Origin: Chloroflexota bacterium
GTDB taxonomy: Bacteria; Chloroflexota; Anaerolineae; Anaerolineales; E44-bin32
Direction of reading: 5' to 3'
DNA: 64,000 nt
Assembly: GCA_022561385.1 (NCBI GenBank)
Contig: JADFRG010000003.1
Coordinates: 66,049 to 130,048 of the forward strand
Of the stretch, positions 22,506-59,145 are shown piece after piece. Each line of letters begins with the position of its first letter. Position 1 is the stretch's first letter. The notes beneath the pieces were generated by a model. That model worked only from the letters and a program-made list of their open reading frames with translations, had not been told where the DNA came from and ran no database searches. A program made the position numbers and the translations under genes.

Positions 22506-22613
<108 letters not shown>

Positions 22614-37854: not shown

Positions 37855-38281
37855 GCCCACCATGGGTAATCCCGGACCGATCTGGGCCCAGATGATGCAG
37901 GATGCGGCTTGCCGCGCCGGGCCGGGAACCGTGTATGAGATTCTGGGTTATGTCGCCGCCGGCCAGTCTGCCCTAACTTACGGGACGGATCTTGAAGGGG
38001 ACTGGTGGTGGATCCAATCCCCGGACGGCTCGCGCAGGTGCTGGATTTCCAATTTACTGGTTTCGTTTCAGAGCAATCTGCCAGAAGTTCCGATCCTGAC
38101 CCCCGAACCGACGCCGCGCGAACTTCCTGCGACCGCGACCGAGGCCCCGCCTCCACCCCCGGCCCCGACCGCGACCTTCACTCTTGTGCCGCCACCGCCG
38201 GGACCGACCTTCACACCCACGCAGGCCGGTACACTCGAATTCCCTGAATGTGGCTCACCTGCTCCGGAGATCTGCCCGTAA
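37733..38281 (+). CDS. PT-linker plus SH3b-like extracellular domain ORF, probably the frameshifted continuation of the kinase
   Basis: In the +1 frame relative to the kinase: KPTPDTAPALVIATETEVPSSTPTVVPSHTPEPT...CRAGPGTVYEILGYVAAGQSALTYGTDLEGDWWWIQSPDGSRRCWIS. No signal peptide or SD of its own. Confidence 0.5.
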   Translation: MRWERPRAAKPTPDTAPALVIATETEVPSSTPTVVPSHTPEPTMGNPGPIWAQMMQDAACRAGPGTVYEILGYVAAGQSALTYGTDLEGDWWWIQSPDGSRRCWISNLLVSFQSNLPEVPILTPEPTPRELPATATEAPPPPPAPTATFTLVPPPPGPTFTPTQAGTLEFPECGSPAPEICP

Positions 38282-40850: not shown

Positions 40851-41690
40851 TTGAGTGGACAAGTGAATACCTTCTCCTTGCGGCCCGCCGCCATATTGGG
40901 AGGCGTGCTGGTTTTGGCATCCCTGGTTGTGCTCAGCCTGATCTGGGCCACATCTGCGCGTAGGTCCGGATCCAATGGCCAGCTCATTTACTTCAATGCC
41001 ACAAATGATCGCGGTGAGCTCCTCACCTATCGAGGAGGCCCTGATGTCATCGGCCCAGGCATGATGGGCACACGTCTCAGCTGCGCTTCCTGTCACGGCC
41101 AGGAAGCAAGGGGTGGCGTGCACATGATGCACATGCGGGTAATGGACGCGCCCGATATCCGCTGGTCGGTTTTAGCCGGCGAGGTTGGAGAAGAGCACGC
41201 CAGCGAAGGCGACCCCGAAGACGAGCATACGGAAGCGCATGCCGGCTACGATCTAGTGAATTTCCGCATGGCGGTAGTGGAAGGCCAGCATCCGAACGGC
41301 GAGCGGCTGAACGCTGAAATGCCACGCTGGCAGATCGGCGACGGCGATCTGAAAGACTTGGCAGAATTCTTGAGATCCCCACCGTTGCTAGAGAAAGGAG
41401 TGCTTATGATGCCTGGAGGTTTTTTCGGAGGCGGAGGATGGATCATCTTCCCCATCATTGGAGTCGTCGTCATGATGGTATTCATGTTCATGATGATGAG
41501 CCGACGGGGAGGTATGATGAGCCGACGGGGAGGTTTCGGGTCTAGTCGAGACGACTATGGCCGAAGCCCCCGAGGCCACAACACCGAGATGGGTGAGACG
41601 GAAACGCCGCTCTCGATCCTGAAAAGCAGGTATGCCCGAGGCGAAATCAGCAAAGACGAATATGCGGAGATGAAGAGCGAGCTACAGTAG
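40851..41690 (+). CDS. membrane-anchored c-type cytochrome domain read through in-frame into a SHOCT-domain membrane module
   Basis: N-terminal TM, heme motif CASCH, then (no stop) MMPGGFFGGGGWIIFPIIGVVVMMVFMFMMM...SILKSRYARGEISKDEYAEMKSELQ (SHOCT). Confidence 0.7.
   Translation: MSGQVNTFSLRPAAILGGVLVLASLVVLSLIWATSARRSGSNGQLIYFNATNDRGELLTYRGGPDVIGPGMMGTRLSCASCHGQEARGGVHMMHMRVMDAPDIRWSVLAGEVGEEHASEGDPEDEHTEAHAGYDLVNFRMAVVEGQHPNGERLNAEMPRWQIGDGDLKDLAEFLRSPPLLEKGVLMMPGGFFGGGGWIIFPIIGVVVMMVFMFMMMSRRGGMMSRRGGFGSSRDDYGRSPRGHNTEMGETETPLSILKSRYARGEISKDEYAEMKSELQ
41406..41690 (+). CDS. possible independently translated SHOCT-domain small membrane protein (nested in the cytochrome ORF)
   Basis: AAAGGAG (41394-41400), 5-nt spacer, ATGATG at 41406, in-frame. 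The 94-aa product has the usual stand-alone SHOCT protein architecture. Confidence 0.45.
   Translation: MMPGGFFGGGGWIIFPIIGVVVMMVFMFMMMSRRGGMMSRRGGFGSSRDDYGRSPRGHNTEMGETETPLSILKSRYARGEISKDEYAEMKSELQ
41493..41534 (+). repeat. perfect 21-bp tandem duplication inside the SHOCT module
   Basis: atgatgagccgacggggaggt twice, encoding MMSRRGG twice. Confidence 0.9.
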
Positions 41691-42269
41691 GGTAGCTCGC
41701 TTTGGATCATCTTAGAGCGGTAGACTCTATTGCTCTTTGTCTCCTGCTCGCTATTCATTGCTGCCAGGGGCCTCTGATCGCCCGGTCACTTCCCCACCCC
41801 CTCCCGGGGGCCACGAAATCCAAGACTGGAACCTGAAACCTGATTGGTTTTGGGGGCTGCAAAGCGTCGCCTCGCGGCTCAGGATGAAGTCTTCAAGGGT
41901 GACTAATACCGTGCCAATTTTGGGTTCTGGCGCCCCCGCTACGTTCGAACAAGATCCAACGCGTGGTCGCATTACACCGTCCCAAAAAGCGGAAGATATA
42001 ATCCCTCGACCGGGACCTGCGTGCCTGTACTCGATAGAGTGCGCCCGCCAGGGTGTTCTGCCCCACCCAGAATCGGGGCCGAGCCAAGCGCGAGCGGTTG
42101 ATCACATTCATTCAGCAGCAGTTCCCGCAGAGCCTGCCGAGGCTGCGGCTCGAGGGCGAGTGTGTCGTAACCGCGGGCACTAGAATTGGGCTGGCGCGGG
42201 CCTGTTTCGGAAGGCGGCCTGGCCGATGGGCGAAACGAGATCATCGGCAAATGACAGAGGGAGGGAAAC

Positions 42270-42563
42270 GTGGGACGGCAAGAAACGATTGAGAAATTGA
42301 AAAACGAGCTGGATGAGCTCAACGAGAAGCTAGATTCACTGGAGGCCACGGGCGAGAAGATCAGTGCCGACGTGAAGTCAGCCTACACGGAGCAAATGGC
42401 GGCGCTGCGCGGACGGAAGGACAAGCTCGCCGAGAAACTCGGCGAAGCAGAGCGCGCAGGCATGGACCTCTGGGAAAGGGTGGCGGGCGATTTTGAGATC
42501 GCGCGAGCCGCGCTCGAAGCCGGCATCACGGAGTTGCGGGCACAGTATAAAGATCAGAAATAG
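42270..42563 (+). CDS. small coiled-coil hypothetical protein
   Basis: GTG start preceded by GAGGGAGGG. 97 aa, heptad-like with E/K/L-rich sequence. Confidence 0.5.
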   Translation: MGRQETIEKLKNELDELNEKLDSLEATGEKISADVKSAYTEQMAALRGRKDKLAEKLGEAERAGMDLWERVAGDFEIARAALEAGITELRAQYKDQK

Positions 42564-42596
42564 ATCGAGGGGCCGACATGCCGTGCCGCAACCCTC

Positions 42597-42853
42597 TTAG
42601 TCAGGGGAGAACGCGTAACACCATGCCACACCCTCCAAAACCGTCTCGCCATCGGCGCGTGTCACGGTGATCGCCAGCTCGGTAACCGGCTTGGATTCGT
42701 GTACGCTGAGAACTTTGGCCTCCGCGGTGACCGTATCACCGATAAAAACCGGGGCCGTGAACCGCCAATCCTGGCTGAGGAAGACGGTACCGGGCCCGGG
42801 CAGGTCTTCGGCCACAAGAGCATGAAGCAGGCCGGTCGTCAGGCCGCCTTGCA
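42597..42853 (-). pseudogene. 3' fragment of a MaoC-like dehydratase gene (left copy of the 255-bp direct repeat)
   Basis: 42599-42853 versus 46947-47201: 252/255 identical by my alignment, with no indels. It covers only the last ~80 codons of the gene at 46936..47349. Confidence 0.85.
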
Positions 42854-42967
42854 GGACAGCTCGAGTTGGGAAGTCATGGCCCAGACCTAATCGGTGGCGC
42901 GAATAGGCGGCGGGGGGAGCCTAAGGCTGGCTGGATTACGTCGGAACATAGCCGAGGCGGAGATCAC

Positions 42968-43960
42968 TCAATACCGAAATTCATGCACGAGCGCCAAGGT
43001 TTGAGGTCCGATTGTTCCCTCAACCATCTCGACCAACTCTCCGTCAATCCATACCCCCACTACGAATTCCTGCTCGACCTCGTTCCCGCAAGTTGCATAG
43101 TAATCCACGATCACCTGATAATTGCCTGAGGGCGCCGTGCCAGCCTTCCAGAAGATGCTCTCCAGCGGCTCGGTTGTCGCCGTGAGACAAGAACCATTGG
43201 CTTCGTATTCCAGCAAGCCCCCAGTCAACGACCGAGGATTTTCGAAGTAGATCTCCTCCTCTCGCGGATCAATTACGTGCAAATCCAAATCTGCAACAGA
43301 CTGCCAAAGAAGAGAAACCACCAGATCTCCGGTTACCTCAATCTCACCTGCCCTTGATCGCAAGGCAGCGGACCGTGGGATGGATGTCGGCTGCGGAGTC
43401 GGCAGCGATGTCGGGGTGGGGCTCGGAGGGGGTTGCACGCCACCGCAGGCAAGTGCGATCTCATAGTTCACCCCTGAATCGTCGCTGATCAGCGTGAAGC
43501 TGTAGGTTGCCCGTCTCGGCAGCAGGAAACTTCGCGTGTCCGAAGAACTTGCCCCACCGCGGGCATGAATCAGGCTCTCATCTTCGAGCTGAAGATCGAA
43601 CTGCAGGTCGGAACTGTCGCTTGCGCTGAGGTAATGCACAGAGAGCACATCCCCCGGCTCGCCCTCAATCTGCCAGGTGACGTTGCTGTGGGGAAGGAGC
43701 TCATGACGGATGGACTGGCCACAAGGCAAAATTAAAGGCAGCAAAGGCTCAGACGATGGGGTGGCGGTTTGAGGTTCGTCTCCCAAGGTGCCGCTAGAAA
43801 ACTTCCCGCTGGTCTCCTGTGAAGGACCCGCTGAAGTTGAGACGGTTACTGCAAGTAGCCCCGCTGAGAGAGCCATGCAAGCCGCCAGGCCCGCCAGCCC
43901 GGCAAGGCCTCCCGCGAGCAGAACGGGGGTGCTGCGGGCACGATCGGAGGTCCGCAGCAC
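42968..43960 (-). CDS. membrane-anchored/secreted hypothetical protein with DUF2135 (YfaP)-like C-terminal domain
   Basis: TM segment near the N-terminus, PT linker. C-terminal LDLHVIDPREEEIYFENPRSLTGGLLEYEANGSC resembles the DUF2135 motif (from memory). Confidence 0.6.
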   Translation of the reverse strand: MLRTSDRARSTPVLLAGGLAGLAGLAACMALSAGLLAVTVSTSAGPSQETSGKFSSGTLGDEPQTATPSSEPLLPLILPCGQSIRHELLPHSNVTWQIEGEPGDVLSVHYLSASDSSDLQFDLQLEDESLIHARGGASSSDTRSFLLPRRATYSFTLISDDSGVNYEIALACGGVQPPPSPTPTSLPTPQPTSIPRSAALRSRAGEIEVTGDLVVSLLWQSVADLDLHVIDPREEEIYFENPRSLTGGLLEYEANGSCLTATTEPLESIFWKAGTAPSGNYQVIVDYYATCGNEVEQEFVVGVWIDGELVEMVEGTIGPQTLALVHEFRY

Positions 43961-44003
43961 CCGGTAAAGTCCGAGACTGAATTTGATGTTTTGCCCTCAG
44001 GCG

Positions 44004-44582
44004 CTACTTCGTGGATATGTTTGCGGTCACCTTGCTGGGTCGCTCCGCCTTTAGCTTGGCAACCTGTCGGCCGTTGTCACGCCAGGCTTCGGCCACCATA
44101 GGGGCCGAGTATGTGTAGAAAACCTCGCGAACGGGCTCCTTGATCAGAAAGAGCAGAATGACAACATCCACCCCAGCCGTCAGAGCGTACGTCGCAATCG
44201 AGCCGAGCCCCAGACCGAGTACAGCGAGCCAGTTGGGAGCAAGCGATCCGATGCCGAGCGCGACCGCGCCGGCCTGGCCGAAGAGCCCGCCGATGATCCC
44301 AAGCAGGGCCAGGAACACGGCTCCCATTCGAGCCGAGTTCCTCATCTTCACCAGGTCTCTCCCAGTAACGGCATAGAGGCTAACGAGCAGCAGGCTCAGT
44401 AGCGTGCCGATGATCGGCAGGAAGAGCTTCTGAGCTAGTCCCGTCGAGCCATCGCTGAGTATCGGCAGAATGGCATAGACGATGATGGCCACCGCACCGA
44501 TCAGGTAGGCGATCGCCATCAGGAAATGATAAGCCGAGGCGAGGCTTACCTGGTCGTGAATGACTCTATCTTTGGTGTTCAT
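44004..44582 (-). CDS. polytopic membrane protein (about 4 TM)
   Basis: 192 aa with four long hydrophobic segments. Confidence 0.7.
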   Translation of the reverse strand: MNTKDRVIHDQVSLASAYHFLMAIAYLIGAVAIIVYAILPILSDGSTGLAQKLFLPIIGTLLSLLLVSLYAVTGRDLVKMRNSARMGAVFLALLGIIGGLFGQAGAVALGIGSLAPNWLAVLGLGLGSIATYALTAGVDVVILLFLIKEPVREVFYTYSAPMVAEAWRDNGRQVAKLKAERPSKVTANISTK

Positions 44583-44611
44583 TTTGGTTCTCTCCTTTGC
44601 GCTAGGGTCGG

Positions 44612-46390
44612 TCAGTGCAACGGCGAAATCATGAGGTCATCGCCGAAAGTCGGATAAGCAAAATCTGTTGCTCCGCTGCCGATGGTCGCGAGCTGTGAAT
44701 CGGCGAGCTCCGTCAACCCAATCGGCGCGGACTTCGAGCTCGGATCCTGATCGGAAGGTGCTGGGATGGTGAGCAAGTATCCGACCGGCAGAATCGTCGA
44801 ATCGTTGAGGGCGTTCACCCGCAGGATGTCATCCGCAGTGGTCCTGTGCTGGTCGGCAATCGCTGGAAGGGTATCGCCCGCCCTGACGGTGTACGAGGCC
44901 ACAGAGGGCGACCAAGCGGCCAAGTCGGTTCGCCTGAGCACATCGAACCCGCCAAGACCGGTCCGGCGGCGCCAGCTCCCGCAGTTTTCACAGGTACTGC
45001 GCAGCACCCCTGCGTCTGGATCCATCGGGTCGTACAGCAGAACCCGTTCGATCCAAAAATCCCCATTTGCCTGTTCTTGATTTGTGACTGTGTAGCTACG
45101 GCCATCGCCATCCACTTCAGTGACGACGAACATATGCGAGAAGGCGCCACGGCCTGAGTACGTGAAAAGAAAGTCGCCGGGATAAAGCGGCCACTCCGAG
45201 AAATCAAAGCGCTCAATCGATTGGGTGAACCGGTGGATTCGGTATTGGTCGCTCGGGAACAGGGACCATGGCCGGCCGTTAGTGAGGGGATCGGCCAGCC
45301 AGTAATTGGCGAGGTCGGTGACCGGCCCGGCCGCGCTTGGCAGAAGCCCGGCGTGCTGAAGAATGGCTGCGGCCAGCGGCCCACACATGTTGGACGGATC
45401 CTCATATCCATACCGTTGAAAACCAATCGCCCGTGCGACTTGTTGGGTCTCTTCCCGAGAGCCGGTAACAAATTTCTGGGCTGTCGTGCGGAGCCTGTCC
45501 TGCCAGCCCAATAAATCCTGTGAAGGCTTGGTCTGCAGCTCGCGAAGGTCGCCGAATCCGGCTTCGCGCATCCAACTGCATATAATCGGCCCGCCGTGTG
45601 GGTCTGTGGCGCCGGCCGAATCGAAGTAGCCCTTCCTTCCGGCGAAATACCCATACTTGCCCAGCAGTTGGTCGAGTGCCTGTCTCGAAAGTTCTCTATC
45701 GCCTATGGCCACCGCGTGAACATGGATTTCGGAGCCGGGGTAGAGCTCGTCCTCATCACGCAGCCAGGCCGCAAAACCCGCGGCTCGAAGCGCTCTAACA
45801 ACCCCCTCGATCTCACCATAGAGGACCCGTTGCGTTTGAGGATGCTTGACCGAAATATCCAGAACCCCGCGGTCACGATGCGGGTCTGGCATTGGGAGCT
45901 TGCCAGGGTGATCGATGGAGACGATCGCGGTTTCCGTCAGATCGATGGACCCGCCGTAGATCTGCCCGGCCTGTTGAAGCATCCCAAAGGTGCGAACGCT
46001 CAGCACCCGTTCTCCTACTTGGACCGGGGAATAATCCTCCACAGGGGAGCCGCAGCCGGCCGGTTCGAATCTGGCTGTCACGGCAGTAAAGGGGACTAGC
46101 TCCTCCAAGGAAGACGGCTCGGCTTGGGGCGGGCCATCGGAATTGGAATGGGTGGTTACAGCAGCCGGAACAAGTGGCACGATCGGCTGGGATTGGGTGA
46201 TTGAAGATAAAGGCGTCCGGGTGAGCGATGGGTCGTCCTGGCCATCCGCTTCTGATGGCGCATTTTCGGGCGCGATCGTGGTGATCGCAACCGCCACGGC
46301 AAGCACAACAAAGATCGCTTTCACCATGGAAAGCAGGATCGCCGAAGCGATCAGAGGCAGACGGAGATCGGCGTTGCCGACGATTAGCAT
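44612..46390 (-). CDS. membrane-anchored multidomain cell-wall protein with C-terminal LysM
   Basis: TM at the N-terminus. LysM is YTVRAGDTLPAIADQHRTTADDILRVNALNDSTILPVGYLLTIP. The central region has a Cys/His pair (NMCGPLAAA ... FSHMFVVTEVD) suggestive of a papain-like/NlpC-type peptidase, which is unverified. Confidence 0.7.
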   Translation of the reverse strand: MLIVGNADLRLPLIASAILLSMVKAIFVVLAVAVAITTIAPENAPSEADGQDDPSLTRTPLSSITQSQPIVPLVPAAVTTHSNSDGPPQAEPSSLEELVPFTAVTARFEPAGCGSPVEDYSPVQVGERVLSVRTFGMLQQAGQIYGGSIDLTETAIVSIDHPGKLPMPDPHRDRGVLDISVKHPQTQRVLYGEIEGVVRALRAAGFAAWLRDEDELYPGSEIHVHAVAIGDRELSRQALDQLLGKYGYFAGRKGYFDSAGATDPHGGPIICSWMREAGFGDLRELQTKPSQDLLGWQDRLRTTAQKFVTGSREETQQVARAIGFQRYGYEDPSNMCGPLAAAILQHAGLLPSAAGPVTDLANYWLADPLTNGRPWSLFPSDQYRIHRFTQSIERFDFSEWPLYPGDFLFTYSGRGAFSHMFVVTEVDGDGRSYTVTNQEQANGDFWIERVLLYDPMDPDAGVLRSTCENCGSWRRRTGLGGFDVLRRTDLAAWSPSVASYTVRAGDTLPAIADQHRTTADDILRVNALNDSTILPVGYLLTIPAPSDQDPSSKSAPIGLTELADSQLATIGSGATDFAYPTFGDDLMISPLH

Positions 46391-46622
46391 AAGCCCGGTG
46401 TTGACCCGGTCGAGAAATGAAATGCCCGCTGTCCCTTACCGACAACGGGCCACTCCAGACCGCGATCAAGGTAGCACGAGATCCGACCTCGCAGCCTTAC
46501 ACTTGATTAACAGCCCGCCAGATCTGCCCTACAGATGGGGTGGGGGATCCCGACTTCAGGGCGGGCCTCCGACAACCACGGCCTTAATGCGGACGATGAT
46601 TTCCCTAAGATCTAGGAGGGGG

Positions 46623-46742
46623 AGGTTTTTGGTCCAGGCGAGACGACTATGATCGAAGCCCCCGGAGCCTCAACACCGAGAGGGGTGAGACCGAAACGCC
46701 GCTTTCGATCCTGGAAAAGTGGTATACAAAAGGCGAGATCAG
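46623..46742 (+). pseudogene. remnant of a SHOCT-module C-terminus (diverged copy of 41531-41650)
   Basis: GGFWSRRDDYDRSPRSLNTERGETETPLSILEKWYTKGEI versus GGFGSSRDDYGRSPRGHNTEMGETETPLSILKSRYARGEI. No start, and the frame decays after it. Confidence 0.6.
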
Positions 46743-46935
46743 GGCCTGCATGCCCCCGTCGGGGTATCCCGGCAGGCTCGAATTCGTGTGCTGTGAGGCC
46801 TGCAGTATTAGCAGAAAGGCGACTGCGCCGGCGCCTTCCCGGCCGGGGGAAGTGCCGAAATTCACGCGTGCCTTAGGGTCACCGCTCTGAACACCGTCCC
46901 CCGACCCAAGATCAATGAGTCTCGAATGCCGAGCG

Positions 46936-47349
46936 TCATCCCACCGAGTCAGGGGAGAACGTGTAACACCATGCCACACCCTCCAAGACCGTCTCGCCAT
47001 CGGCGCGTGTCACGGTGATCGCCAGCTCGGTAACCGGCTTGGATTCGTGTACGCTGAGAACTTTGGCCTCCGCGGTGACCGTATCACCGATAAAAACCGG
47101 GGCCGTGAACCGCCAATCCTGGCTGAGGAAGACGGTGCCGGGCCCGGGCAGGTCTTCGGCCACAAGAGCATGAAGCAGGCCGGTCGTCAGGCCGCCTTGC
47201 ACCACTAATTTCCCAAACCGAGTGCCGGCCGCAAATTGCGCGTCAAAGTGCAGAGGATTACGGTCCCCTGTCAGCTCAGAATATGAGAGCACGTGCTCGG
47301 TTGTGAAGGTATTGCTTCGCCGAGCGGTCTGACCCACGTAAATATCCAT
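46936..47349 (-). CDS. MaoC-like (R)-specific enoyl-CoA hydratase / hotdog-fold dehydratase
   Basis: 137 aa. SELTGDRNPLHFD...FGKLVVQGG motif. Confidence 0.85.
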   Translation of the reverse strand: MDIYVGQTARRSNTFTTEHVLSYSELTGDRNPLHFDAQFAAGTRFGKLVVQGGLTTGLLHALVAEDLPGPGTVFLSQDWRFTAPVFIGDTVTAEAKVLSVHESKPVTELAITVTRADGETVLEGVAWCYTFSPDSVG

Positions 47350-47389: not shown

Positions 47390-48628
47390 CTATCCGCGGC
47401 CCACGGCCAGTCGTTCTGCGGCCGGTAACCGGCGCAACGCGAGCATCCCCCAAATACCTACCGCAGGCCCAATCGCAAGGAACGCAAAAGCCCATTCCCA
47501 GCCGATCCAAGAAACAAGACTTGGGATCAAGCGGATCGTGAAGAGCGTCAGGAGAAAGCCCATGCTGGTTTGAAGCGTCAATGAGGTTCCAACATACCGC
47601 TGGTCGGTGAGCTCGCTTACGCTTGCCGAGAATTGGGCGGAGTCGGCCACTACTGCGAATCCCCACACCAGGCTCAGCGCGATCAGCGGTATGGGTGGTC
47701 CGCCAAATAAGAGGCCGACAATCAGGCAGCACGCGCCACTAATTCCCATTAGCAGCGAAGTAATGACCGTCCTACCCATCCGGTCAGCGAGCAGACCGGC
47801 AAGCAAGCTCCCGAGAGCGCCGGCTGCGAAGACTGCAAAGGAAACCAGGCCGGCAAAGCGAGCGTCCAGACCAATCGAGGCAAAGCTGGCCACCAAAAAA
47901 ATCGGGAGCCAGGCCCACATGGCAAAGAGCTCCCACATGTGGCCCAAATAACCAAGGTTGGCGAGCATGATTTCGCGTTTGCGCAGGATCACGCCCACAT
48001 GACGCCAGTTGAAGTGCGGCGCCGGCGCCGCAAAGGGTCCCTCCCGAATGAAAAGCGCCGAGACGATACATCCGACCGCGGCCAGTGCCGCCGACAGATA
48101 AAGCGTAAAGGTCCAGTGCCCAAGCCCTCCGGCGGCGTTAAGCAGGTGCGGCGCACCCGATCCGAGTGTGAGCGCACCCACCAACAGACCAATCCCGAGC
48201 CCGCGGTCGGATTTGGTCCAGGTGGCCATGATCTTCATTCCGACCGGATAGACACCGGCTAGGACCAACCCCGTCAAGAAGCGAAGCAACAATGCGAGGC
48301 CCAAACCCTGGGCCAATATCGGAATCAACGCGGTTGCCAGGGCCGCAAGCCCGGCTGAGATCGACATCATCCAGCGCGAGGGCAGCCGATCGGCCAGGCC
48401 GAGCAGCGCCGAGCCGAAAGCCCCCACAACAAAGCCAATCTGAACCGACATCGTCAGCCAGGCACGCCCTGAGTCGTTCAGCCTCCAGACTTGAGTCAGT
48501 TGCGGCACTACCGCGGAAGCTGAAAACCACACCGACATGCTCAGCAGCGTGGCCACAGACAACAGCAACAGCGTGGGCCGCTTGCCGACGACCAGGGCTA
48601 GGCGAGGTCGAGCTAGTACTTTGCCCAG
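47390..48628 (-). CDS. MFS transporter
   Basis: About 12 hydrophobic segments. The track start is TTG 48568. The frame stays open upstream and GAAGGAGG plus an 8-nt spacer precedes CTG 48628 (MGKVLARPRLALVVGKRPTLLLL), so the start is uncertain. Confidence 0.75.
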   Translation of the reverse strand: MGKVLARPRLALVVGKRPTLLLLSVATLLSMSVWFSASAVVPQLTQVWRLNDSGRAWLTMSVQIGFVVGAFGSALLGLADRLPSRWMMSISAGLAALATALIPILAQGLGLALLLRFLTGLVLAGVYPVGMKIMATWTKSDRGLGIGLLVGALTLGSGAPHLLNAAGGLGHWTFTLYLSAALAAVGCIVSALFIREGPFAAPAPHFNWRHVGVILRKREIMLANLGYLGHMWELFAMWAWLPIFLVASFASIGLDARFAGLVSFAVFAAGALGSLLAGLLADRMGRTVITSLLMGISGACCLIVGLLFGGPPIPLIALSLVWGFAVVADSAQFSASVSELTDQRYVGTSLTLQTSMGFLLTLFTIRLIPSLVSWIGWEWAFAFLAIGPAVGIWGMLALRRLPAAERLAVGRG

Positions 48629-48691: not shown

Positions 48692-50746
48692 CTATTTGAG
48701 GGTCTCTGTGTTGTCGCCCTGAACCATCTGGCGAATCTGTTCCACCACTTCGGGGTTGGCCAACGTGGTGACATCGCCGATATCCCTGGCGTCAGAGATG
48801 GCCGCCAGGACGCGGCGCATGATCTTTCCGGACCGCGTCTTCGGCATATCAGGCACGATATGCACACGTTTGGGTCGAGCAATCTTCCCAATCTCCGTCT
48901 CGATCGCGGCCACCACCGCCTCCTGAATCTTCTTGCTCGGCTTGTATTCAGGTTTCAGTGAGATGTAGGCGTCCGGTACGCGCCCCTTGATATCATCCGC
49001 CATTGGCACAACGGCTGCTTCCGCAACTTCTGGAACTAACAAACACGCCGACTCGAGTTCTTTCGTGCCCAATCGATGTCCGGCGACGTTGATCACGTCA
49101 TCAACCCTGCCCAAAATCCGATAGTAGCCATCGTCGGCCTGAATTGCGGCGTCTCCCGTGAAGTAGGGCCAGTCTCTCCAGTCTTTGCTCTCCGGGTTCC
49201 TGCAGTATTTCTCGTAGTAGGTTGAGACGTACCGCTTGCGGTCCCCCCAGATCGTCTCGAACCCCCCCGGCCAGGGGTTCTGAATGCAGATGTTTCCCGC
49301 CTTCCCCGAACCGCGTTCGATCACACTGCCGTCCTCGTCATAGATGATGGGATGGATGCCCGGCATCCCCGGGCCCGCACTCCCAGGCTTCATCGGATGG
49401 ATGGCCGGCATCGTGCTGCAGAGGAAGCCTCCCGTCTCGGTTTGCCAGTAAGTGTCCACGATCACCGCTTTGCCTTTGCCAACGGAGTGGTAATACCATC
49501 GCCAGACCTCCGGCTCGATCGGTTCGCCAACGGTGGTCATGTGCTTAAATTGGAACTGGTACTTACCAGGTTCGTCCGGACCGGCCTTCCTGAGCATCCG
49601 GATCGTTGTCGGCGCCGTGTGAAATATGTTGACCCCCAATCTCTCGGCGATCCTCCACGTTCGCCCGGCGTCCGGATAGGTCGGTACTCCCTCATACATT
49701 ACGGAAGTGGCCGCCAGCGAAAGCGGCCCGTACACGATGTAAGAATGGCCCGTAATCCATCCGATATCCGCCATGCACCAATACACATCTTCGGGGTGGA
49801 TATCCTGCACATATTTCGAGGTGCCCGCAACATATGCAAGGTAACCGCCCGTATTGTGTTGACAGCCTTTCGGCTTCCCCGTGGTACCGCTCGTGTACAT
49901 CAGGAAGAGCGGCGCTTCGGCCGGCATGGATACGGGTTCGATGCGGGCGCCGAGATAGTTGGGAAGCAGCTCGTCCACGAAGAAGTCCCGGCCCTTTACC
50001 ATCTTTGACTTCGAGACGTATTGTCCGGGGTACCGCCGCCAGACCAACACCTTGTCGACGACCTGACCTTCGTTACCGGCCACCTGAACTGCTTCGTCCG
50101 ACTTCACCTTGTGGTCAAGTAAATCGCCCGCGCGATGGTAGCCGTCCATCGTTATCAGAATTCGAGAACCCGAGTCCGCGATCCGTTCGCCGCACGACTT
50201 GCCACTGAACCCTCCGAAGACTTCGGAATGAATTACACCCAGCCGGGCGCAGGCGAGCATGGTGATGGGCAGCTCGGGGACCATGGGCAGGTGCAGCGTC
50301 ACCCGGTCGCCGGCCTTGAGGCCCGCAAAGTCCTGGAGCAGCGCCGCGAGCTCATTCACCCTGACGTAGAGCTCTTGGTAGGTGAGGGCCACATCCGCTT
50401 CTTCCTCCGGCTCCGGCACCCAGATGATGGCGGCCTTATTCCGGTGGTTTGGGAGGTGACGGTCGACGCAGTTGTAGCAGGCATTGATCCGCCCGCCCAC
50501 AAACCAACGCCAGCTGGGGGCGTTGCTGGTGTCGAGAGTCGTATGCCAGTACTTGTCCCACGTAAGTAAGTCTGCGTATTCTTTGAAACACTCGGGAAAG
50601 TTTCCGAGCCGAAATCGGTCGAACACCGCCTGATCGGTCTGATTGGCCTGGGCGATGAATTCCGCCGGTGGGTAGAAATACTCCTCTTCCTGCCAGTGAG
50701 CAGCGATTTCGGCTTCGCTAACTTCGATGCCTTCCTTATCGCTCAT
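48692..50746 (-). CDS. acs: AMP-forming acetyl-CoA (short-chain acyl-CoA) synthetase
   Basis: 684 aa. AMP-binding motif YTSGTTGKPKG, YWQTETGG, and C-terminal PKTRSGKIMRR. Confidence 0.92.
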   Translation of the reverse strand: MSDKEGIEVSEAEIAAHWQEEEYFYPPAEFIAQANQTDQAVFDRFRLGNFPECFKEYADLLTWDKYWHTTLDTSNAPSWRWFVGGRINACYNCVDRHLPNHRNKAAIIWVPEPEEEADVALTYQELYVRVNELAALLQDFAGLKAGDRVTLHLPMVPELPITMLACARLGVIHSEVFGGFSGKSCGERIADSGSRILITMDGYHRAGDLLDHKVKSDEAVQVAGNEGQVVDKVLVWRRYPGQYVSKSKMVKGRDFFVDELLPNYLGARIEPVSMPAEAPLFLMYTSGTTGKPKGCQHNTGGYLAYVAGTSKYVQDIHPEDVYWCMADIGWITGHSYIVYGPLSLAATSVMYEGVPTYPDAGRTWRIAERLGVNIFHTAPTTIRMLRKAGPDEPGKYQFQFKHMTTVGEPIEPEVWRWYYHSVGKGKAVIVDTYWQTETGGFLCSTMPAIHPMKPGSAGPGMPGIHPIIYDEDGSVIERGSGKAGNICIQNPWPGGFETIWGDRKRYVSTYYEKYCRNPESKDWRDWPYFTGDAAIQADDGYYRILGRVDDVINVAGHRLGTKELESACLLVPEVAEAAVVPMADDIKGRVPDAYISLKPEYKPSKKIQEAVVAAIETEIGKIARPKRVHIVPDMPKTRSGKIMRRVLAAISDARDIGDVTTLANPEVVEQIRQMVQGDNTETLK

Positions 50747-51578
50747 AAAAGGTCCCTCCTGTCGGCCCGATCTGATAGTTTACAAGATGAGTTTGCTAAT
50801 GTATGGATCGAATCGGATCTGCAGATCCGTCTGAGTTCCCTCACATTTGTACAACATTTGTCTCGTTTTTGAGAGGCGGGAGCATATCCAGCTCGCTTCT
50901 GCGAGCTCGTCATCGGAGACATGGCCACGATGATCCCAGCGGTCCTGGCGACCGCCATCCCGGTCACTGTAGCCAGGGTGATGATCATGGTGTTCACGCC
51001 GATCATCTGGAGTTGCGAGCGCAGATCAACCGTGACCAGGGCGGTTAGAGGTCGCAGCAATTAAAATAGAACTCAAATCTCAGATAGCCTCCCCGGGCCG
51101 GTGTGTCAGGGGTTCGCCTTCGTGAGTGTTCTGGAGGACAGGAACTTGGGAACACGAAAATGAGCACATTATTCGTGGCTCCTGAAGGCATCGCTCAAAA
51201 TTTGAACATAAGGTATGAAATGGCGCTCATTTTGAGCGGCCATGAGTAAAATGCATTGCACTGTGTCATAGGTCATGAAGCGGGGGGACCAAGCTCGCTT
51301 CAGGCGATTTAGCGACGAAACCGATCCATGATCCGCGGGCGTTTGGGGATCTAGCCGAATCCCATCGCCATGAGTTGACTGTTCACTGCTCTGGACCCAT
51401 AAAGAAGAAGATGAGGATTGCCGCGAGCCACGGACGCTTCATAAGTCACCTCCAAAGGATTTGATCACTATATTGTTTAACTGTCCAAGCTGGCGAAACT
51501 GTTCGGTCTACATCCACCAATCTGCATCGCACGAGCGCCTTGAGGGTCCATAACATTTACAATCCACACTTGGAAAAA

Positions 51579-51610
51579 AGGACAGGACCGACCGTCTATG
51601 TGTCCGTCCT
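51579..51610 (-). terminator. orphan intrinsic terminator oriented on the minus strand
   Basis: Minus strand: AGGACGGAC-13 nt loop-GTCCTGTCCT followed by TTTTTT. No minus-strand gene lies upstream of it. Confidence 0.4.
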
Positions 51611-51728
51611 ACCCAGCTGCGGCGTCAACGAGCGGCAGCTCCTCGGCCCGCCTCATGAAATCTGGGGCGCAGAGTCGGAGACCCATAGACTCTTGATCAT
51701 TCGCAGTCCATAGAGGAGGTTCACACAC

Positions 51729-52730
51729 ATGCCTAGCTTTGCGATCGCTACCAAGGGAGCATTGCTGCTTGTTCGGCAGGGAAATGTCGAACAGCATCTG
51801 CAGGGGCTGGCGCCCGAGTCGATTTCCCTCGATGAGACCGACCCAACCCGACAGTATGTTGGGACCTCGGGCAACGGTCTATGGCGCAGCAGCGACACCG
51901 GCCGCAGTTGGGAGCCGGCGGGCGCAGGCATTCCGCATAGCGAGATCACGGCAGTGGCGGTCGAGCGAGCAGGTGATGCGCGCCCTGGAGTCGTTTACGC
52001 CGGGACCGAACCCAGCACGCTCTCCCGCTCCGATGACGCAGGAGAGACCTGGCGCGAGTTGACGGCGCTCATGGACCTGCCCTCAGCCACCAGTTGGAGC
52101 TTCCCACCCAAACCCGAGACTCATCATGTGCGCTGGATCGAGGTCGATCCTACGGTCGAAGGAAGGCTGTACGTGGCAATCGAGGCCGGCGCGCTGGTTC
52201 GGTCGACCGACGGCGGCGACACCTGGCAAGACCGCGTAAGCGGCGGACCGATCGACACGCACACCGCGGCCACCCACCCAGCAGCGAGCGGACGTTTGTA
52301 TTCGGCTGCAGGAGACGGTTACTTCGAGAGCGATGATGGCGGGGATAGCTGGTCGCGACCAATGGATGGCCTACAACATGGCTACTTGGTCGGCGTGGCG
52401 GTGGATCCCGGGGACCCCGATACGGTGGTGGTTTCCGGCGCCTCAGGTCCGTATCTGGCATATCGGCCGAGCAATGCTGAGGCCTATATGTACCGAAGGA
52501 TGGGTGGGCGGCCATTTGAGCTGGCAATGGAAGGTTTGCCAAACGGGCGGGGCACTGTGGCCAGCCGGCTTGCGACGCGTGCGGATGAACCGGGCGTCTT
52601 CTACGCCGCCAACAATCACGGGCTGTTCCGCTCAAAGGACGGTGGGGTGAGCTGGAAGGCGCTCGAGATCGCGTGGCCAGATGGCGTGTTCCGCCGCGGC
52701 GTGGATGCTTTGATCGCCTTTCTTGAGTAG
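51729..52730 (+). CDS. BNR/Asp-box repeat beta-propeller protein (Ycf48-like)
   Basis: Repeated S-x-D-x-G-x-(S/T)-W boxes (SSDTGRSW, SDDAGETW, STDGGDTW, SDDGGDSW, SKDGGVSW). SD GAGGAGG. Confidence 0.75.
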   Translation: MPSFAIATKGALLLVRQGNVEQHLQGLAPESISLDETDPTRQYVGTSGNGLWRSSDTGRSWEPAGAGIPHSEITAVAVERAGDARPGVVYAGTEPSTLSRSDDAGETWRELTALMDLPSATSWSFPPKPETHHVRWIEVDPTVEGRLYVAIEAGALVRSTDGGDTWQDRVSGGPIDTHTAATHPAASGRLYSAAGDGYFESDDGGDSWSRPMDGLQHGYLVGVAVDPGDPDTVVVSGASGPYLAYRPSNAEAYMYRRMGGRPFELAMEGLPNGRGTVASRLATRADEPGVFYAANNHGLFRSKDGGVSWKALEIAWPDGVFRRGVDALIAFLE

Positions 52731-53551
52731 GGCGCCGCAGGGCCCGCTATTCATCAAATCGGCGGCGGGGGCCTTGCGCCACTAGTAGAAGGAGCCTTCC
52801 CGCCTGCTCAAGAGTTCATACGCTCTCTTGAGGGCCTGGCTGCGGTTCCACACCGGCCGTTGACCTTGATTTTCCATTTCGCGCGCAAAGGAGAATCGGC
52901 CTTGACTCTCCGCCTAAGTGAACGCGAACGGACCGGTTCAAGCGGTAACTAAGGGATTTGTAAATCTCATATCCGACCAGAGCCAGAAGCCAAACCTCAT
53001 CTTCCTTCCACAGCCGGTGACCATCCACATCCTGGAACGCCGGCTTTGGCAGTCGCCGTGAGACTGCAAGTCCCATATCAAACTCATGAACGGCCATTTA
53101 ATTTCCCGGCATCGCGCCCACGCAAGCGTCAAGAAGATTGCCGCAAATAAAACACCAAAGCATCAGAACGCAATGAACGGGAACAGCTCGGCAATTAGGT
53201 CAGTCACTTTTCAGAAGCCGGTGCGAGCACCTCTCCAATTATGGTGAGGTCGCTGCCTGATTGCCAAGCCTAAGAAATCCAAGTATGCCTCTGGCTCGAA
53301 GATGTTCCAGATTTCCACTGGGCGATAATCCTGGTCGCAGCGAAACTCTCCGCTACTCCCGTTATGCATGAACCGCCACCCGAGCAAGACAAAAAAGGCG
53401 TAAAGCCCCCGCTCGAGAGTGGGGCTCTGCGTTTTTCGCAGCTTCCTGACCGCTTGACAAGAGAGGGGGAGCGGTGGACCGTCTGAAATCCGTCGGCATT
53501 CCCAAATCGCTCGGCAACAGCCGAGCGGTCGGTTCGAAACTCGCACACCGT

Positions 53552-53570
53552 ATTCTTGACCGATCGGTAA
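53552..53570 (+). promoter_or_regulatory. TetR-operator-like inverted repeat overlapping a -35 box (copy 3)
   Basis: ATTCTTGACCGATCGGTAA. TTGACC, 17 nt, then TACAGT at 53579-53584. Confidence 0.5.
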
Positions 53571-53607
53571 AAATAAGATACAGTTTGGCCTCTCTCCGCT
53601 AGATCAA

Positions 53608-53652
53608 ATGGCGCGAACTGTGGATTGTGACCCCGATCGAGCTTTGGTTTGA
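53608..53652 (+). pseudogene. 14-codon remnant of a tetR 5' end (MARTVDCDPDRALV*)
   Basis: Part of the 53552-53647 segment, which is about 85% identical (my alignment) to the reverse complement of 59685-59781 (tetR promoter plus MARTKEFDPARALES). Confidence 0.55.
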
Positions 53653-53691
53653 ATCTAGCCTTCAGGCAACTGTGACGAGAAAGGACACACC

Positions 53692-54177
53692 ATGCAACCA
53701 TCCAATCCGACGGACCTGGCCTACTGTTTCGCCTACGGCATCGACGCTGTTGGCAGAGGGGATTTCGATCGAGGCGTCGCCATGTGGGAGGAGTGTCTTG
53801 CCGAGGACTACTCGTTCAAGTTCACCTTCTACCCTGGTGGGCCTTCGGTGGAGTGCCCTGGACCTGACTGCCCGGTTCAGGAGTACGAGAGCCTTGCACA
53901 GCTGCGGGCTCAATTTGCACAGGGCAATTTCAAGCAAGAAGGATACACGGCCACGCAGCATCAGATGTTGAACGTCGAGCTTAGAAGTCAAGACGGGAAT
54001 GAAGCGGAAGTTTTTGCCTACATTCAGGCGAATCATTTCCTCCCCGACGGCGTTATTCACATCTTTTGGGGTGACTACTCCATCAAATGCGTCGAGAAGG
54101 TTGGGCGTTGGCGAGTGCAGCGTGAGGAGATCACAGGCACCTCCTTCTTGAAATTCCAGGGCTCACAAGTCGGCTGA
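53692..54177 (+). CDS. SnoaL/NTF2-like fold protein
   Basis: 161 aa. The pattern is typical of the SnoaL_4/NTF2-like family (recognition by eye). SD GAAAGGA. Confidence 0.65.
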   Translation: MQPSNPTDLAYCFAYGIDAVGRGDFDRGVAMWEECLAEDYSFKFTFYPGGPSVECPGPDCPVQEYESLAQLRAQFAQGNFKQEGYTATQHQMLNVELRSQDGNEAEVFAYIQANHFLPDGVIHIFWGDYSIKCVEKVGRWRVQREEITGTSFLKFQGSQVG

Positions 54178-54279
54178 TCAGGAGCCGACAACTCGTCTCT
54201 TATTCAGTACATAGGTGGCTACTCAATGGGGCGCATCCGCGCGGCAACGGTGGCACGGTCGGGCGGATGCCTTCAAGCC

Positions 54280-54846
54280 TCATGTATTGGGAAACAACCA
54301 CCTGCGGAAGAAGCGCGTGATCCAGGGCATCACCCAATAAGTGGCCAAAGTGGCCACGATGCTGACCGTCACGAGGGTGCCCAGCGCTGGCGGAAACTGG
54401 GTGGTGTCGGCAACCCATCGGCCAATCACGAGGATAAGAGGATAGAGACCGACGACGGTGAGGATGGCCATCTTGTATCGTGCTGGACGCCCTGGCGATC
54501 GCTGTACGGCCGGCGGCGTGAACCACCCCTCCAAGCCATGGGCCTCCTCCAAAACCGGCTCACCCTCGGTCAACTCCATGGATTGCTCCACGATGCTTGC
54601 TCGCTCCGATGACGCGCGCCACAGGGAGTAACGGTCGAAGCTGTCAAAACGAAGGATGATGACATAAGTCGGGTGGCTTGGGTCAACGGGCCGGACGACG
54701 TCCATCCCGACGTACCCTTCGAAACCAGACACCACACCCCTTATCTCATCGATCCAGGCCTCAAACTCGGCTACGCGGTCGGGCTTCACTCGACGCGTGA
54801 TGCCGACCGAGATCGGATCCGGATCATTCAGTCCATCGGTATTCAT
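54280..54846 (-). CDS. ABM (antibiotic biosynthesis monooxygenase)-like domain protein with C-terminal TM pair
   Basis: 188 aa with an N-terminal ferredoxin-like ABM pattern (VKPDRVAEFEAWIDEIRGVVSGFEGYVGMDVVRP...YVIILRFDS). Two C-terminal TM segments. Confidence 0.65.
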   Translation of the reverse strand: MNTDGLNDPDPISVGITRRVKPDRVAEFEAWIDEIRGVVSGFEGYVGMDVVRPVDPSHPTYVIILRFDSFDRYSLWRASSERASIVEQSMELTEGEPVLEEAHGLEGWFTPPAVQRSPGRPARYKMAILTVVGLYPLILVIGRWVADTTQFPPALGTLVTVSIVATLATYWVMPWITRFFRRWLFPNT

Positions 54847-55043
54847 GGTTCGCTGCCTTTCTGTACCCGTAGGATACGCAAGCGGCTCGGCCAGAAAACC
54901 GCCGCCGATTCACGGCCGATCCAGTCAAGTCCCGCCCATAGACGTACTCTGCTGAGGGGCGGGATGTCAGACGTGTACTTAGTTGGCATAACATCGCCGG
55001 CCGTTACCGTGGCCTTAGGTCCTCCCGCGGATATAGCCATCGC

Positions 55044-55592: not shown

Positions 55593-55883
55593 CTTTTCAA
55601 TTCGCCTTCCTGCCCGCCGGATAGATTACGCCCGCACCTCAAGTTTTCCTGAGCTGCACTTCGTCACCTGGGGATGTCAGGCCGTTGGCGCCGGCATCCT
55701 CTGAGCAGCGCGATGCTCCTGCGCATCGCCAGCCGCCCCTAGGCCGGAGCCAATTCGGGGTGCCGGCGGCCGCATGCATTTCAAGCGGGAATAGCATTGG
55801 CGGAAGGCTTTTTTGGCGCACTAAACACCCATGCCACATGCTTATGTTGGGGTCGCGAGCCTGCGACTGGCTAGGCTGCAGCG

Positions 55884-56279: not shown

Positions 56280-56322
56280 AAGCATCTCCTTTGATCGCGA
56301 GCCTCGTCCTGCAACCAGCAAG

Positions 56323-59132: not shown

Positions 59133-59145
59133 ATTGACAAAAAAA

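What the first reader, a model, noticed from the sequence alone, without database searches (positions are those of the whole stretch)
42599..47201. Three-gene envelope island bracketed by near-identical 255-bp direct repeats (partial maoC duplication)
Seen:
- 42599-42853 and 46947-47201 are direct repeats with 3 mismatches in 255 bp and no indels (offset 4348 bp).
- The right copy is the 3' end of the intact MaoC-like gene. The left copy is a truncated fragment.
- Between them lie three minus-strand genes: a DUF2135-like secreted protein, a 4-TM protein and a LysM multidomain wall protein.
- Also between them is a degraded SHOCT remnant.
- The layout is full SHOCT gene, maoC fragment, cargo, SHOCT fragment, full maoC. 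This is what single-crossover (Campbell-type) integration of a circular molecule carrying a homologous SHOCT-maoC segment would leave, or a duplication followed by an insertion.
- No integrase, transposase or tRNA was seen.
- The low divergence of the maoC repeats versus the strong divergence of the SHOCT copies implies at least two events or gene conversion.
- The repeats make the 4.3-kb segment excisable by homologous recombination.
Basis: partly seen in the sequence, partly recalled or inferred. Interest (0 to 1): 0.55.

Follow-up and report, generated by a model that had tools for sequence, protein, structure and literature searches.

The report
Cell-wall operon flanked by duplicated maoC end
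A three-gene cell-envelope operon sits inside a duplicated 3' end of a maoC-like gene in an uncultured Anaerolineae bacterium; it was put there by ordinary illegitimate recombination, not by a mobile element, and some assembled contigs lack it.

Summary
42599-42853 and 46947-47201 differ at 3 of 255 positions. In most related strains the repeat is 279 bp (42574-42853 / 46923-47201). At least eight independent metagenome assemblies span both copies with the same junctions, so this is not a misassembly.

- The intervening block (LysM protein, 4-TM protein, secreted 330-aa protein, decayed cytochrome-c/SHOCT gene, spacer "B") is one syntenic unit. In sister species (L097, L095; 87-89% DNA identity) it lies next to a DUF2652 gene, not maoC.
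- The SHOCT remnant belongs to this block. Two strains keep a much longer pseudogene there.
- The left joint (42853|42854) lies on a 12-nt microhomology. There is no integrase, transposase, tRNA, compositional anomaly, or phage or plasmid match.
- Four contigs show an uninterrupted sll1863-like gene to maoC "empty" allele. At least one of them may be a repeat collapse.
- Synonymous divergence of the cargo is about 4-fold lower than that of its flanks. One strain carries a 98.4%-identical block between flanks that are 82-93% identical. The block is therefore exchanged by homologous recombination.

Best reading: one illegitimate joint plus homologous recombination, followed by RecA-type exchange and loss. 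The Campbell circle model is only partly supported. This is an ordinary kind of strain-variable islet with a well-documented origin.

The parts
40851..41690 (+). Cytochrome-c / SHOCT membrane protein gene (copy U1). It is the resident paralogue of the decayed copy inside the island.
   Evidence: PF09851 SHOCT E=3e-9 and PF00034 at its cutoff. The gene is deleted in strain L106.
41864..42030 (+). Conserved non-coding pieces Z-A-(start of B) downstream of U1. In sister species the same A-B pieces lie upstream of the LysM operon.
   Evidence: blastn to L095 and L097 gives 73-81% identity. L103 and L106 also carry Z-A, followed directly by the sll1863-like gene.
42270..42563 (+). 97-aa coiled-coil gene of the sll1863 stress-protein family, convergent on maoC. 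It is the left neighbour of the insertion site.
   Evidence: NF052504 E=1.1e-17, 64 bits against a cutoff of 35. The exact protein occurs on 23+ contigs.
42574..42853 (-). Left repeat copy: a dead 3' remnant of maoC. The core is 42599-42853. The leftmost about 25 nt is a diverged 'type b' allele in this strain.
   Evidence: It lacks the hydratase motif. Its differences from the right copy are a mix of synonymous and non-synonymous changes, indicating relaxed constraint.
42842..42853 (.). Left novel joint J1 (42853|42854), lying on the 12-nt microhomology GGCC(G/T)CCTTGCA. This sequence is shared by maoC and by the sequence downstream of the operon in L097.
42854..42967 (-). 3' flank of the operon, homologous to L097. 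It contains the truncated start of a small ORF (MTSQLE..).
42968..43960 (-). 330-aa protein with an N-terminal hydrophobic anchor or signal sequence, a Pro/Thr linker and a C-terminal beta-rich domain. No family assignment.
   Evidence: No Pfam or NCBIfam hit; DUF2135 only at E=0.22. Hydropathy. 83-88% identical in L095 and L097.
44004..44582 (-). 192-aa integral membrane protein with 4-5 TM segments.
   Evidence: It always follows the LysM gene in relatives.
44612..46390 (-). 592-aa membrane-anchored LysM protein, probably a papain-like (CHAP / NlpC-P60-type) peptidoglycan hydrolase.
   Evidence: PF01476 E=3e-10; CHAP E=0.057. C336 and H419 are invariant in 41 homologues. AF2 model pLDDT 70.6, with only weak fold matches (E>=0.013) to CHAP, papain-like and NlpC/P60 enzymes.
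46391..46624 (-). Upstream region of the operon, conserved with sister species.
   Evidence: About 90% identity to L097 and 88% to L095.
46616..46742 (+). Remnant (U2) of a second cytochrome-c/SHOCT gene. In this strain only the last about 127 nt survive.
   Evidence: 83% identical to 41524-41650. L102 and L106 keep 5' and 3' parts, with frameshifts and a lost CxxCH motif.
46836..46905 (+). Spacer 'B', homologous to the sequence that follows 'A' upstream of the operon in L097 and L095. It is the last part of the block before maoC.
46923..47201 (-). Right repeat copy: the 3' end of the functional maoC gene.
46936..47349 (-). Intact MaoC-like (R)-hydratase gene, followed by the MFS transporter (47390-48568) and acetyl-CoA synthetase (48692-50746) genes.
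   Evidence: ACS-MFS-maoC synteny is also seen in a distant relative, L008.

Best explanation
This is a strain-variable chromosomal islet made without any mobile-element machinery.

A roughly 4.07-kb block contains the LysM / 4-TM / secreted-protein operon, its upstream region with a second cytochrome-c/SHOCT gene, and spacer B. In sister species this block is a neighbourhood of its own. Here it has been joined to position 279 (counted from the 3' boundary) of the maoC-like gene by an illegitimate crossover at a 12-nt microhomology (42842-42853).

The most economical route is a one-sided event of the homology-facilitated illegitimate recombination type. DNA with the arrangement operon - cytc/SHOCT - B - maoC - MFS recombined homologously on the maoC/MFS side. 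It recombined illegitimately on the other side with a chromosome arranged trx - cytc/SHOCT - sll1863-like - maoC - MFS. The recipient's own last 279 bp of maoC were left as a dead remnant (left copy). The incoming DNA supplied the intact gene end (right copy).

The now-redundant second cytc/SHOCT gene then decayed, to different degrees in different strains. Since then the block has been exchanged between lineages and can be deleted by RecA-type homologous recombination between flanks or between the two repeats.

Shown: the repeats, the microhomology joint, the synteny of the block in sister species, the long pseudogene in L102 and L106, the empty-type contigs, and the recombination tracts.

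Inferred: the direction of the event, the donor arrangement, and the enzymology.
For: 1. Eight independent assemblies span both repeat copies with identical junctions: L002, L085-L089, L098 and L106.
2. The window is homologous to L097 from 42842 to 46624, and again over spacer B at 46840-46895 (alignable to about 46905). The same operon in L095 and L097 lies beside DUF2652.
3. Homology to L097 ends exactly at the repeat boundary on GGCC(G/T)CCTTGCA.
4. L102 and L106 carry an 874-nt second cytc/SHOCT pseudogene. It is 71-73% (5' part) and 82-83% (3' part) identical to the resident gene, convergent on maoC. The order cytc/SHOCT then maoC therefore exists twice, as expected if two allelic arrangements of one neighbourhood recombined.
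5. Left-right identity is high in the conserved coding part but falls to 50-85% in the unconstrained C-terminal tail and 3' UTR. That tail is hypervariable in relatives.
6. Functional copies and empty alleles differ almost only synonymously. Left copies carry as many non-synonymous as synonymous differences.
7. There is no tRNA, integrase, transposase or GC anomaly, and no match in the viral, phage or plasmid collections.
8. Four-fold-site divergence between the window and L098 is 18/646 in the cargo, against 62/571 in MFS+ACS and 17/138 in trx plus the sll1863-like gene. L106 has a 98.4%-identical block between flanks that are 82-93% identical.
9. The trigger factor of the L095 organism is 82% identical to that of the window species, and the cargo proteins are 80-88% identical. 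The operon is therefore clade-inherited, not a recent foreign import.
Against: - The postulated donor arrangement (operon - cytc/SHOCT - B - maoC without a left maoC remnant) was not found in any contig.
- Only one relative (L097) reaches the left joint, so the microhomology rests on a single comparison.
- If the two maoC ends came from lineages whose cytc/SHOCT genes differ by 17-29%, more synonymous differences than the 3-11 per 255 nt seen would be expected. Later gene conversion or recombination has to be invoked.
- Extensive recombination among strains blurs polarity. L103 (empty) and L106 (island) share a 98.9%-identical right flank.
Confidence: 0.45

Rival explanations
1. Replicative copy-paste (FoSTeS/MMBIR-type template switching). 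A fork copying the 3' end of maoC switched at the 12-nt microhomology to the operon locus elsewhere in the same genome. It copied about 4.07 kb through spacer B, then switched back to just downstream of the maoC stop. This gives an insertion flanked by a 279-bp target duplication.
For: Microhomology at J1 and short AGATC/CGA similarity at the right joint. The boundaries of homology to L097 coincide with the inner ends of both repeats. The repeat includes 13 nt of 3' UTR that are nearly identical in 'type a' left copies and right copies. Complex insertions with microhomology junctions are documented for replicative mechanisms (PMC5120786, found; not read in detail).
Against: It leaves unexplained why the insertion landed about 1 kb from a paralogue of its passenger cytc/SHOCT gene, in the same order and orientation relative to maoC. 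It predicts initially identical copies, yet the tail region differs at 4-13 of 25 nt. No second operon copy was seen: every contig in the >=90% cluster that was fetched and that reaches the region downstream of the 330-aa gene carries J1.
Confidence: 0.25
2. Campbell-type integration. A circular molecule carrying the operon plus a maoC 3' segment integrated by a single homologous crossover in maoC. Such a circle could itself arise by recombination between the two repeats of an island-bearing genome.
For: Direct repeats exactly bracket the insert, and empty-type contigs exist that equal the predicted excision product or target. 279 bp at 95-99% identity is ample for RecA (established knowledge).
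Against: It does not explain the first joining of maoC to the operon, which is a microhomology joint. The SHOCT piece is not part of the crossover homology. The recombination tracts seen in L098, L102 and L106 end at different places inside and outside the island, as expected of linear double crossovers and not of whole-cassette integration. No circular junction can be tested here.
Confidence: 0.12
3. An old tandem segmental duplication of the cytc/SHOCT to maoC-3' unit within one genome. This was followed by insertion of the operon at the duplication joint, insertion of the sll1863-like gene in the left unit, decay of the right cytc/SHOCT copy, and gene conversion that keeps the maoC pieces alike.
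For: Two colinear units, cytc/SHOCT then maoC end. Differences between the copies cluster at the left edge, with a 220-nt perfect run in several strains, as conversion would give.
Against: The operon followed by A-B is syntenic in L095 and L097 without maoC, so the right cytc/SHOCT unit belongs with the operon. The model needs at least four extra events. Homology to L097 ends exactly at J1.
Confidence: 0.12
4. Assembly artefact: the repeat and the island's position are a mis-join of strain variants.
For: Short-read assemblies often break in the repeat (L001, L003, L004, L099-L101). One MAG holds both an 'empty' contig and a cargo contig overlapping it by exactly 55 nt.
Against: Eight assemblies from different studies and assemblers traverse both copies colinearly, including strains whose copies share no exact run longer than 67-80 nt.
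Confidence: 0.02

Closest known systems
Homology-facilitated illegitimate recombination (additive integration with one homologous anchor; described for Acinetobacter and Streptococcus pneumoniae transformation - own knowledge; the term occurs in PMC6382021)
   Same: One side is continuous homology (maoC-MFS-ACS). The other side is a joint at a short microhomology. No recombinase gene is present. The insert is several kb of chromosomal DNA from a relative.
   Different: The organism is an uncultured Anaerolineae with no evidence of competence. The donor arrangement was not observed. The illegitimate joint lies inside the anchor gene, so a 279-bp remnant duplicate results instead of a deletion.
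Microhomology-mediated replicative insertions or duplications (FoSTeS/MMBIR; tandem-duplication join points in bacteria)
   Same: A 12-nt microhomology at the novel joint, and an insertion flanked by a duplicated target segment.
   Different: No second copy of the inserted block was found. The edge of the duplicated segment is too diverged for a simple recent copy.
Campbell-type integration and excision of a circular DNA through a cloned homologous segment
   Same: Direct repeats of a gene fragment bracket the insert. The predicted excision product (empty site with one hybrid copy) is seen in contigs.
   Different: There is no replicon, no att site and no integrase. The origin of the maoC-operon joint is illegitimate, and the SHOCT remnant is cargo rather than crossover homology.
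Integrase-borne genomic islands / ICEs / prophage remnants
   Same: Strain-variable presence, a few kb of accessory-looking envelope genes, and flanking direct repeats.
   Different: No integrase, no tRNA target, no compositional skew, and repeats far longer than att cores. The cargo is a clade-conserved operon with vertical-like divergence.

Membership tests
Integrase-mediated genomic island / integrative element | Tyrosine or serine recombinase gene at one end | tested here: not met
   No such domain was found in the genes of 32-64 kb (Pfam; precomputed Pfam of neighbours).
Integrase-mediated genomic island / integrative element | Insertion at a tRNA/tmRNA gene with short att repeats | tested here: not met
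   No tRNA or tmRNA in 64 kb. The repeats are 279 bp of a protein-coding gene.
Integrase-mediated genomic island / integrative element | Foreign base composition | tested here: not met
   GC is 0.56-0.61 inside against 0.57-0.63 outside.
IS / composite transposon insertion | Transposase gene, terminal inverted repeats and a 2-14 bp target duplication | tested here: not met
   No transposase. No significant inverted repeats at the ends. The duplication is 279 bp.
Homology-facilitated illegitimate recombination product | Novel joint at a short microhomology on one side | tested here: met
   12-nt GGCC(G/T)CCTTGCA at 42842-42853 against L097 and maoC.
Homology-facilitated illegitimate recombination product | The other side is a homologous anchor shared by donor and recipient | tested here: inconclusive
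   maoC-MFS-ACS is continuous, and a second cytc/SHOCT to maoC order exists. No donor-type contig was found.
Homology-facilitated illegitimate recombination product | Uptake of exogenous DNA (competence) | not testable with these tools
   Only a 64-kb window is available and there is no experimental system.
Campbell-type integration of a circle | The insert is bracketed by direct repeats of the homologous segment | tested here: met
Campbell-type integration of a circle | Existence of the circular form, or a junction closing the insert on one repeat copy | not testable with these tools
   No reads are available. The short cargo contigs end in the repeat, but that is what any assembler produces.
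LysM-domain cell-wall proteins | LysM domain above the Pfam threshold | tested here: met
   PF01476, 40.3 bits against a cutoff of 20.9, residues 500-543. PDB LysM matches.
CHAP / NlpC-P60 papain-like peptidoglycan hydrolases | Catalytic Cys-His domain recognised by profile or fold | tested here: inconclusive
   CHAP E=0.057, below cutoff. C336 and H419 are invariant. Foldseek's best hits are E=0.013-0.3 to CHAP, papain-like and NlpC/P60 structures.
   12.1 bits against 22, with only 15 residues matched.
MaoC-like dehydratase | MaoC_dehydratas domain with the hydratase motif | tested here: met
   The full gene gives PF01575 at 79 bits, and the motif GDRNPLHFD is present. The left fragment covers only profile positions 76-115 and is below cutoff.

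The most novel reading that the evidence does not exclude
The islet may be an integrase-free cassette that moves only by host homologous recombination. It would loop out as a circle through its 279-bp maoC repeats. It would re-enter empty maoC alleles of other lineages, or be swapped by double crossover. A young allele of a cell-envelope operon could then be sweeping through otherwise 5-18% diverged lineages of an uncultured Anaerolineae population, perhaps under phage or surface selection.
Probability: 0.15. Interest if true: 0.5.

Novelty: new member of a known kind. Interest (0 to 1): 0.3.

Why it matters
It is a clean natural example of how a chromosome gains and loses a few genes with no mobile-element machinery. 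There is one microhomology joint, a leftover gene fragment that then serves as a recombination handle, and differential decay of a redundant passenger gene in different strains. For metagenomics it is also a caution. The 279-bp repeat makes assemblers either break the locus or skip the operon, so contigs that appear to lack these genes may be artefacts. The reduced synonymous divergence of the operon relative to its flanks marks it as a locus of recent gene flow in this population.

Tried and rejected
1. A genome-contig scan with the MFS protein returned only relatives at 72% identity or less. ACS-MFS-maoC synteny appears in L008, but there were no cargo, cytc/SHOCT or sll1863-like hits. These are too distant to serve as an outgroup.
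2. A metagenome-contig scan with the LysM protein gave two same-species contigs and 40-50% homologues without the two partner genes. No donor-type arrangement was found.
3. The viral contigs, phage and plasmid searches found nothing.
4. Z-A-B was tested as a dispersed repeat or structured RNA. The fold is no better than shuffles (z=+1.6). There is no Rfam hit. Copies occur only in the syntenic contexts.
5. The promoter and terminator scan did not exceed shuffles.
6. Polarity from flank phylogeny was rejected as unreliable because the strains are mosaics. L092 differs from the window clade by 0.2% on the left flank but by 2.7-4% from every strain on the right. L103 and L106 share the right flank but not the left.
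7. The maoC C-terminal tail was tested as a clock and rejected, because it is hypervariable in relatives.
8. The structure prediction of the LysM protein gave only weak fold matches.
9. The exact cytc/SHOCT protein of the window is not on record.
Full report
**Observation.**
42599-42853 and 46947-47201 differ at three positions (42614, 42639, 42789). The right end is sharp at 42853/47201, and 21-25 nt of weaker similarity lie to the left. The genes are as described:
- cytochrome-c/SHOCT gene, 40851-41690 (+)
- 97-aa sll1863-family gene, 42270-42563 (+)
- maoC 3' fragment, 42597-42815 (-)
- 330-aa, 192-aa and 592-aa genes on the minus strand
- SHOCT remnant, 46616-46742
- intact maoC, 46936-47349 (-), then the MFS and acetyl-CoA synthetase genes

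The fragment covers only the C-terminal third of the MaoC profile and lacks the hydratase motif. There is no tRNA in the window and no compositional step.

**Is it real?**
Exact-protein look-ups recovered many independent assemblies of the same species. The window probably comes from the 132-kb contig that encodes MCH7609460-63. L002, L085-L089, L098 and L106 each traverse both repeat copies colinearly with the window. They come from different studies and assemblers. In L098 and L106 the two copies share no exact run longer than 67-80 nt, so graph collapse cannot have produced them. In most strains the repeat is 279 nt (42574-42853 = 46923-47201) and includes the maoC stop codon plus 13 nt. 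The window, L002, L105 and, in part, L098 carry a different allele of the leftmost about 25 nt.

**What the insert is.**
- The LysM protein belongs to a large Anaerolineae family (169 hits).
- In relatives with 72-86% identical LysM proteins, the same three genes occur in the same order in other neighbourhoods. In L095 and L097 they lie beside a DUF2652 gene. In L096 they lie beside an ABC transporter.
- At the DNA level the window matches L097 from 42842 to 46624 (89%) and L095 from 42940 to 46626 (87%). After a replaced patch of about 215 nt, the match resumes over 46840-46895, alignable to about 46905. I call this stretch spacer B.
- In those relatives B is preceded by a piece, A, that in the window lies downstream of the resident cytc/SHOCT gene at 41951-42014.
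- In strains L102 and L106 the interval between the LysM upstream region and B is 874 nt rather than 247 nt. It contains the 5' part (71-73% identical) and the 3' part (82-83% identical) of a second cytc/SHOCT gene, with frameshifts and a lost CxxCH motif.

So the SHOCT remnant is the last trace of a whole second gene. That gene lay between the operon and maoC, in the same order and orientation as the resident copy. It travels with the operon and not with the maoC repeat.

**The joints.**
Homology to L097 ends exactly at the inner end of the left repeat. L097 reads ...GATTGGCCTCCTTGCA|GGACACCTCGAG..., and the window reads ...CAGGCCGCCTTGCA|GGACAGCTCGAG.... The functional maoC reads ...CAGGCCGCCTTGCA|CCACTAATTT.... 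The left joint therefore sits on a 12-nt microhomology with 11 of 12 matches. In L097 this microhomology is the ribosome-binding-site-like sequence in front of a small ORF. On the right, similarity to L097 fades around 46905. The stretch up to the repeat shares only AGATC and CGA with the spacer between the sll1863-like gene and maoC.

**Presence and absence.**
Four contigs join the sll1863-like gene directly to a full-length maoC: L092, L104, L105 and L103.
- The MAG of L105 also contains a 3.6-kb cargo contig (L119). It ends 55 nt into the repeat and overlaps L105 by exactly 55 nt. That empty contig may therefore be a skipped loop or a mixed population.
- L103 is a MEGAHIT contig (name prefix k141_) of a lineage 6-8% diverged from the window. 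Its maoC 3' part differs from functional alleles almost only synonymously: 5 synonymous against 1 non-synonymous. It is the best candidate for a true empty allele.
- Left copies show as many non-synonymous as synonymous differences: 9 against 7 in L098 and 6 against 6 in L106. This is as expected for dead remnants.

**Population signals.**
- Between the window and L098, four-fold degenerate sites differ at 18/646 in the three cargo genes and 2/85 in maoC. They differ at 62/571 in MFS+ACS and 17/138 in trx plus the sll1863-like gene. The low-divergence tract runs from about 42800 to about 47500.
- In L102 the tract ends inside the island, near 46400.
- In L106 the block 42258-46593 is 98.4% identical to the window. 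Its flanks are only 82-93% identical, and its resident cytc/SHOCT gene is deleted.
- L103 (empty) and L106 (island) share a 98.9%-identical right flank but have very different left flanks.

The lineages are thus recombination mosaics, and the operon coalesces more recently than its surroundings. Amino-acid changes in the operon are few (20 of 1117 codons between the window and L098), so it is functional.

**Origin.**
The trigger factor of the L095 organism is 82% identical to that of the window species. The cluster holding it contains MCH7610736.1 and the MAGs of L090, L092, L098, L102 and L105. This is similar to the 80-88% identity of the cargo proteins. The operon is therefore an inherited clade operon that sits in a derived position here. 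It is not a recent foreign import. No viral, phage or plasmid relative exists in the collections searched.

**Mechanism.**
All data fit illegitimate recombination without a dedicated recombinase. I prefer a one-sided event of the homology-facilitated illegitimate recombination type. A chromosome arranged trx - cytc/SHOCT - sll1863-like - maoC - MFS recombined with DNA arranged operon - cytc/SHOCT - B - maoC - MFS. The recombination was homologous on the maoC/MFS side and used the 12-nt microhomology on the other. This explains three things at once:
- the duplicated maoC end
- the colinear second cytc/SHOCT gene
- the sharp loss of left-right identity in the unconstrained C-terminal tail and 3' UTR, a tail that is hypervariable in relatives

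Its weaknesses are that the donor arrangement was not found and that the coding parts of the two copies are more alike than expected. Later conversion or recombination must be assumed.

The rivals fare as follows:
- Replicative template switching fits the joints. It leaves the neighbouring paralogue a coincidence and predicts a second operon copy that was not seen.
- A Campbell circle can explain spread and loss, but not the first joint.
- An old in-situ tandem duplication conflicts with the operon-A-B synteny in sister species.

**Cargo function.**
- The 592-aa protein has an N-terminal TM helix and a LysM domain (residues 500-543). Between them is a domain with invariant Cys336 and His419. 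That domain gives sub-threshold CHAP/Amidase_6 profile hits and weak fold matches to CHAP, papain-like and NlpC/P60 enzymes. It is probably a membrane-anchored peptidoglycan hydrolase (moderate confidence).
- The 192-aa protein has 4-5 TM segments.
- The 330-aa protein has an N-terminal hydrophobic segment and no family assignment. The DUF2135 label is not supported at threshold.

**Verdict.**
This is a genuine, reproducible, strain-variable islet, and its origin can be read from the sequence. It is a new example of a known kind of event rather than a new kind of element.

Noticed in passing
window 50881-61179: A second strain-variable block. L092 and L102 jump from 50880 straight to 61180, while L098 has at least the first 3 kb of the block. 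It encodes a BNR/sortilin-like protein, SnoaL_4, two ABM monooxygenases, LtrA, a luciferase-domain protein, DUF4386 and a TetR regulator. No mobility genes were seen.
   Followed up: partly
window 42015-42257: A 243-bp stretch between piece A and the sll1863-like gene is absent, with the same boundaries, in the divergent strains L103 and L106. It is an indel of unknown origin just left of the island.
   Followed up: partly
window 42574-42598: A cluster of 7-11 substitutions in about 25 nt (allele 'type b') distinguishes the left copy of the window, L002, L105 and, partly, L098 from other strains whose flanks differ by only 0.1%. It shortens the remnant ORF, and it shortens the L105 maoC product to 134 aa. 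It looks like a small imported or templated patch.
   Followed up: partly
window 41493-41534: A perfect 21-bp tandem duplication (ATGATGAGCCGACGGGGAGGT x2) inside the cytc/SHOCT gene, encoding MMSRRGG twice.
   Followed up: no
window 22506-22613 (+): A SAM (S-box) riboswitch, 87 bits, upstream of the 404-aa ORF at 22698-23912.
   Followed up: no
window 20594-21285 and about 32520-33213: An inverted pair of 82%-identical segments about 0.7 kb long, seen as a secondary blast hit of every locus that covers the CMAS-type methyltransferase gene. They are paralogous methyltransferase genes.
   Followed up: no
window about 38049-38207: Several strains (L089, L091, L093, L094) align in two pieces that overlap by about 55 nt here and have about 100 extra bases. 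This is a small copy-number or indel polymorphism in the left flank.
   Followed up: no
L098 15916-20993 versus window 36756 leftwards: Strain L098 has FGGY kinase, DAO oxidase and GDPD genes where the window has glycosyltransferase and radical-SAM genes. This is another strain-specific replacement left of the protein kinase gene.
   Followed up: no
L095 13510-13594; L096 (about 100 nt downstream of the third operon gene): A piece similar to window 41864-41950 ('Z') lies just downstream of the operon in L095 and L096. It is inverted relative to A-B, which lie upstream of the operon. Its role is unknown.
   Followed up: partly
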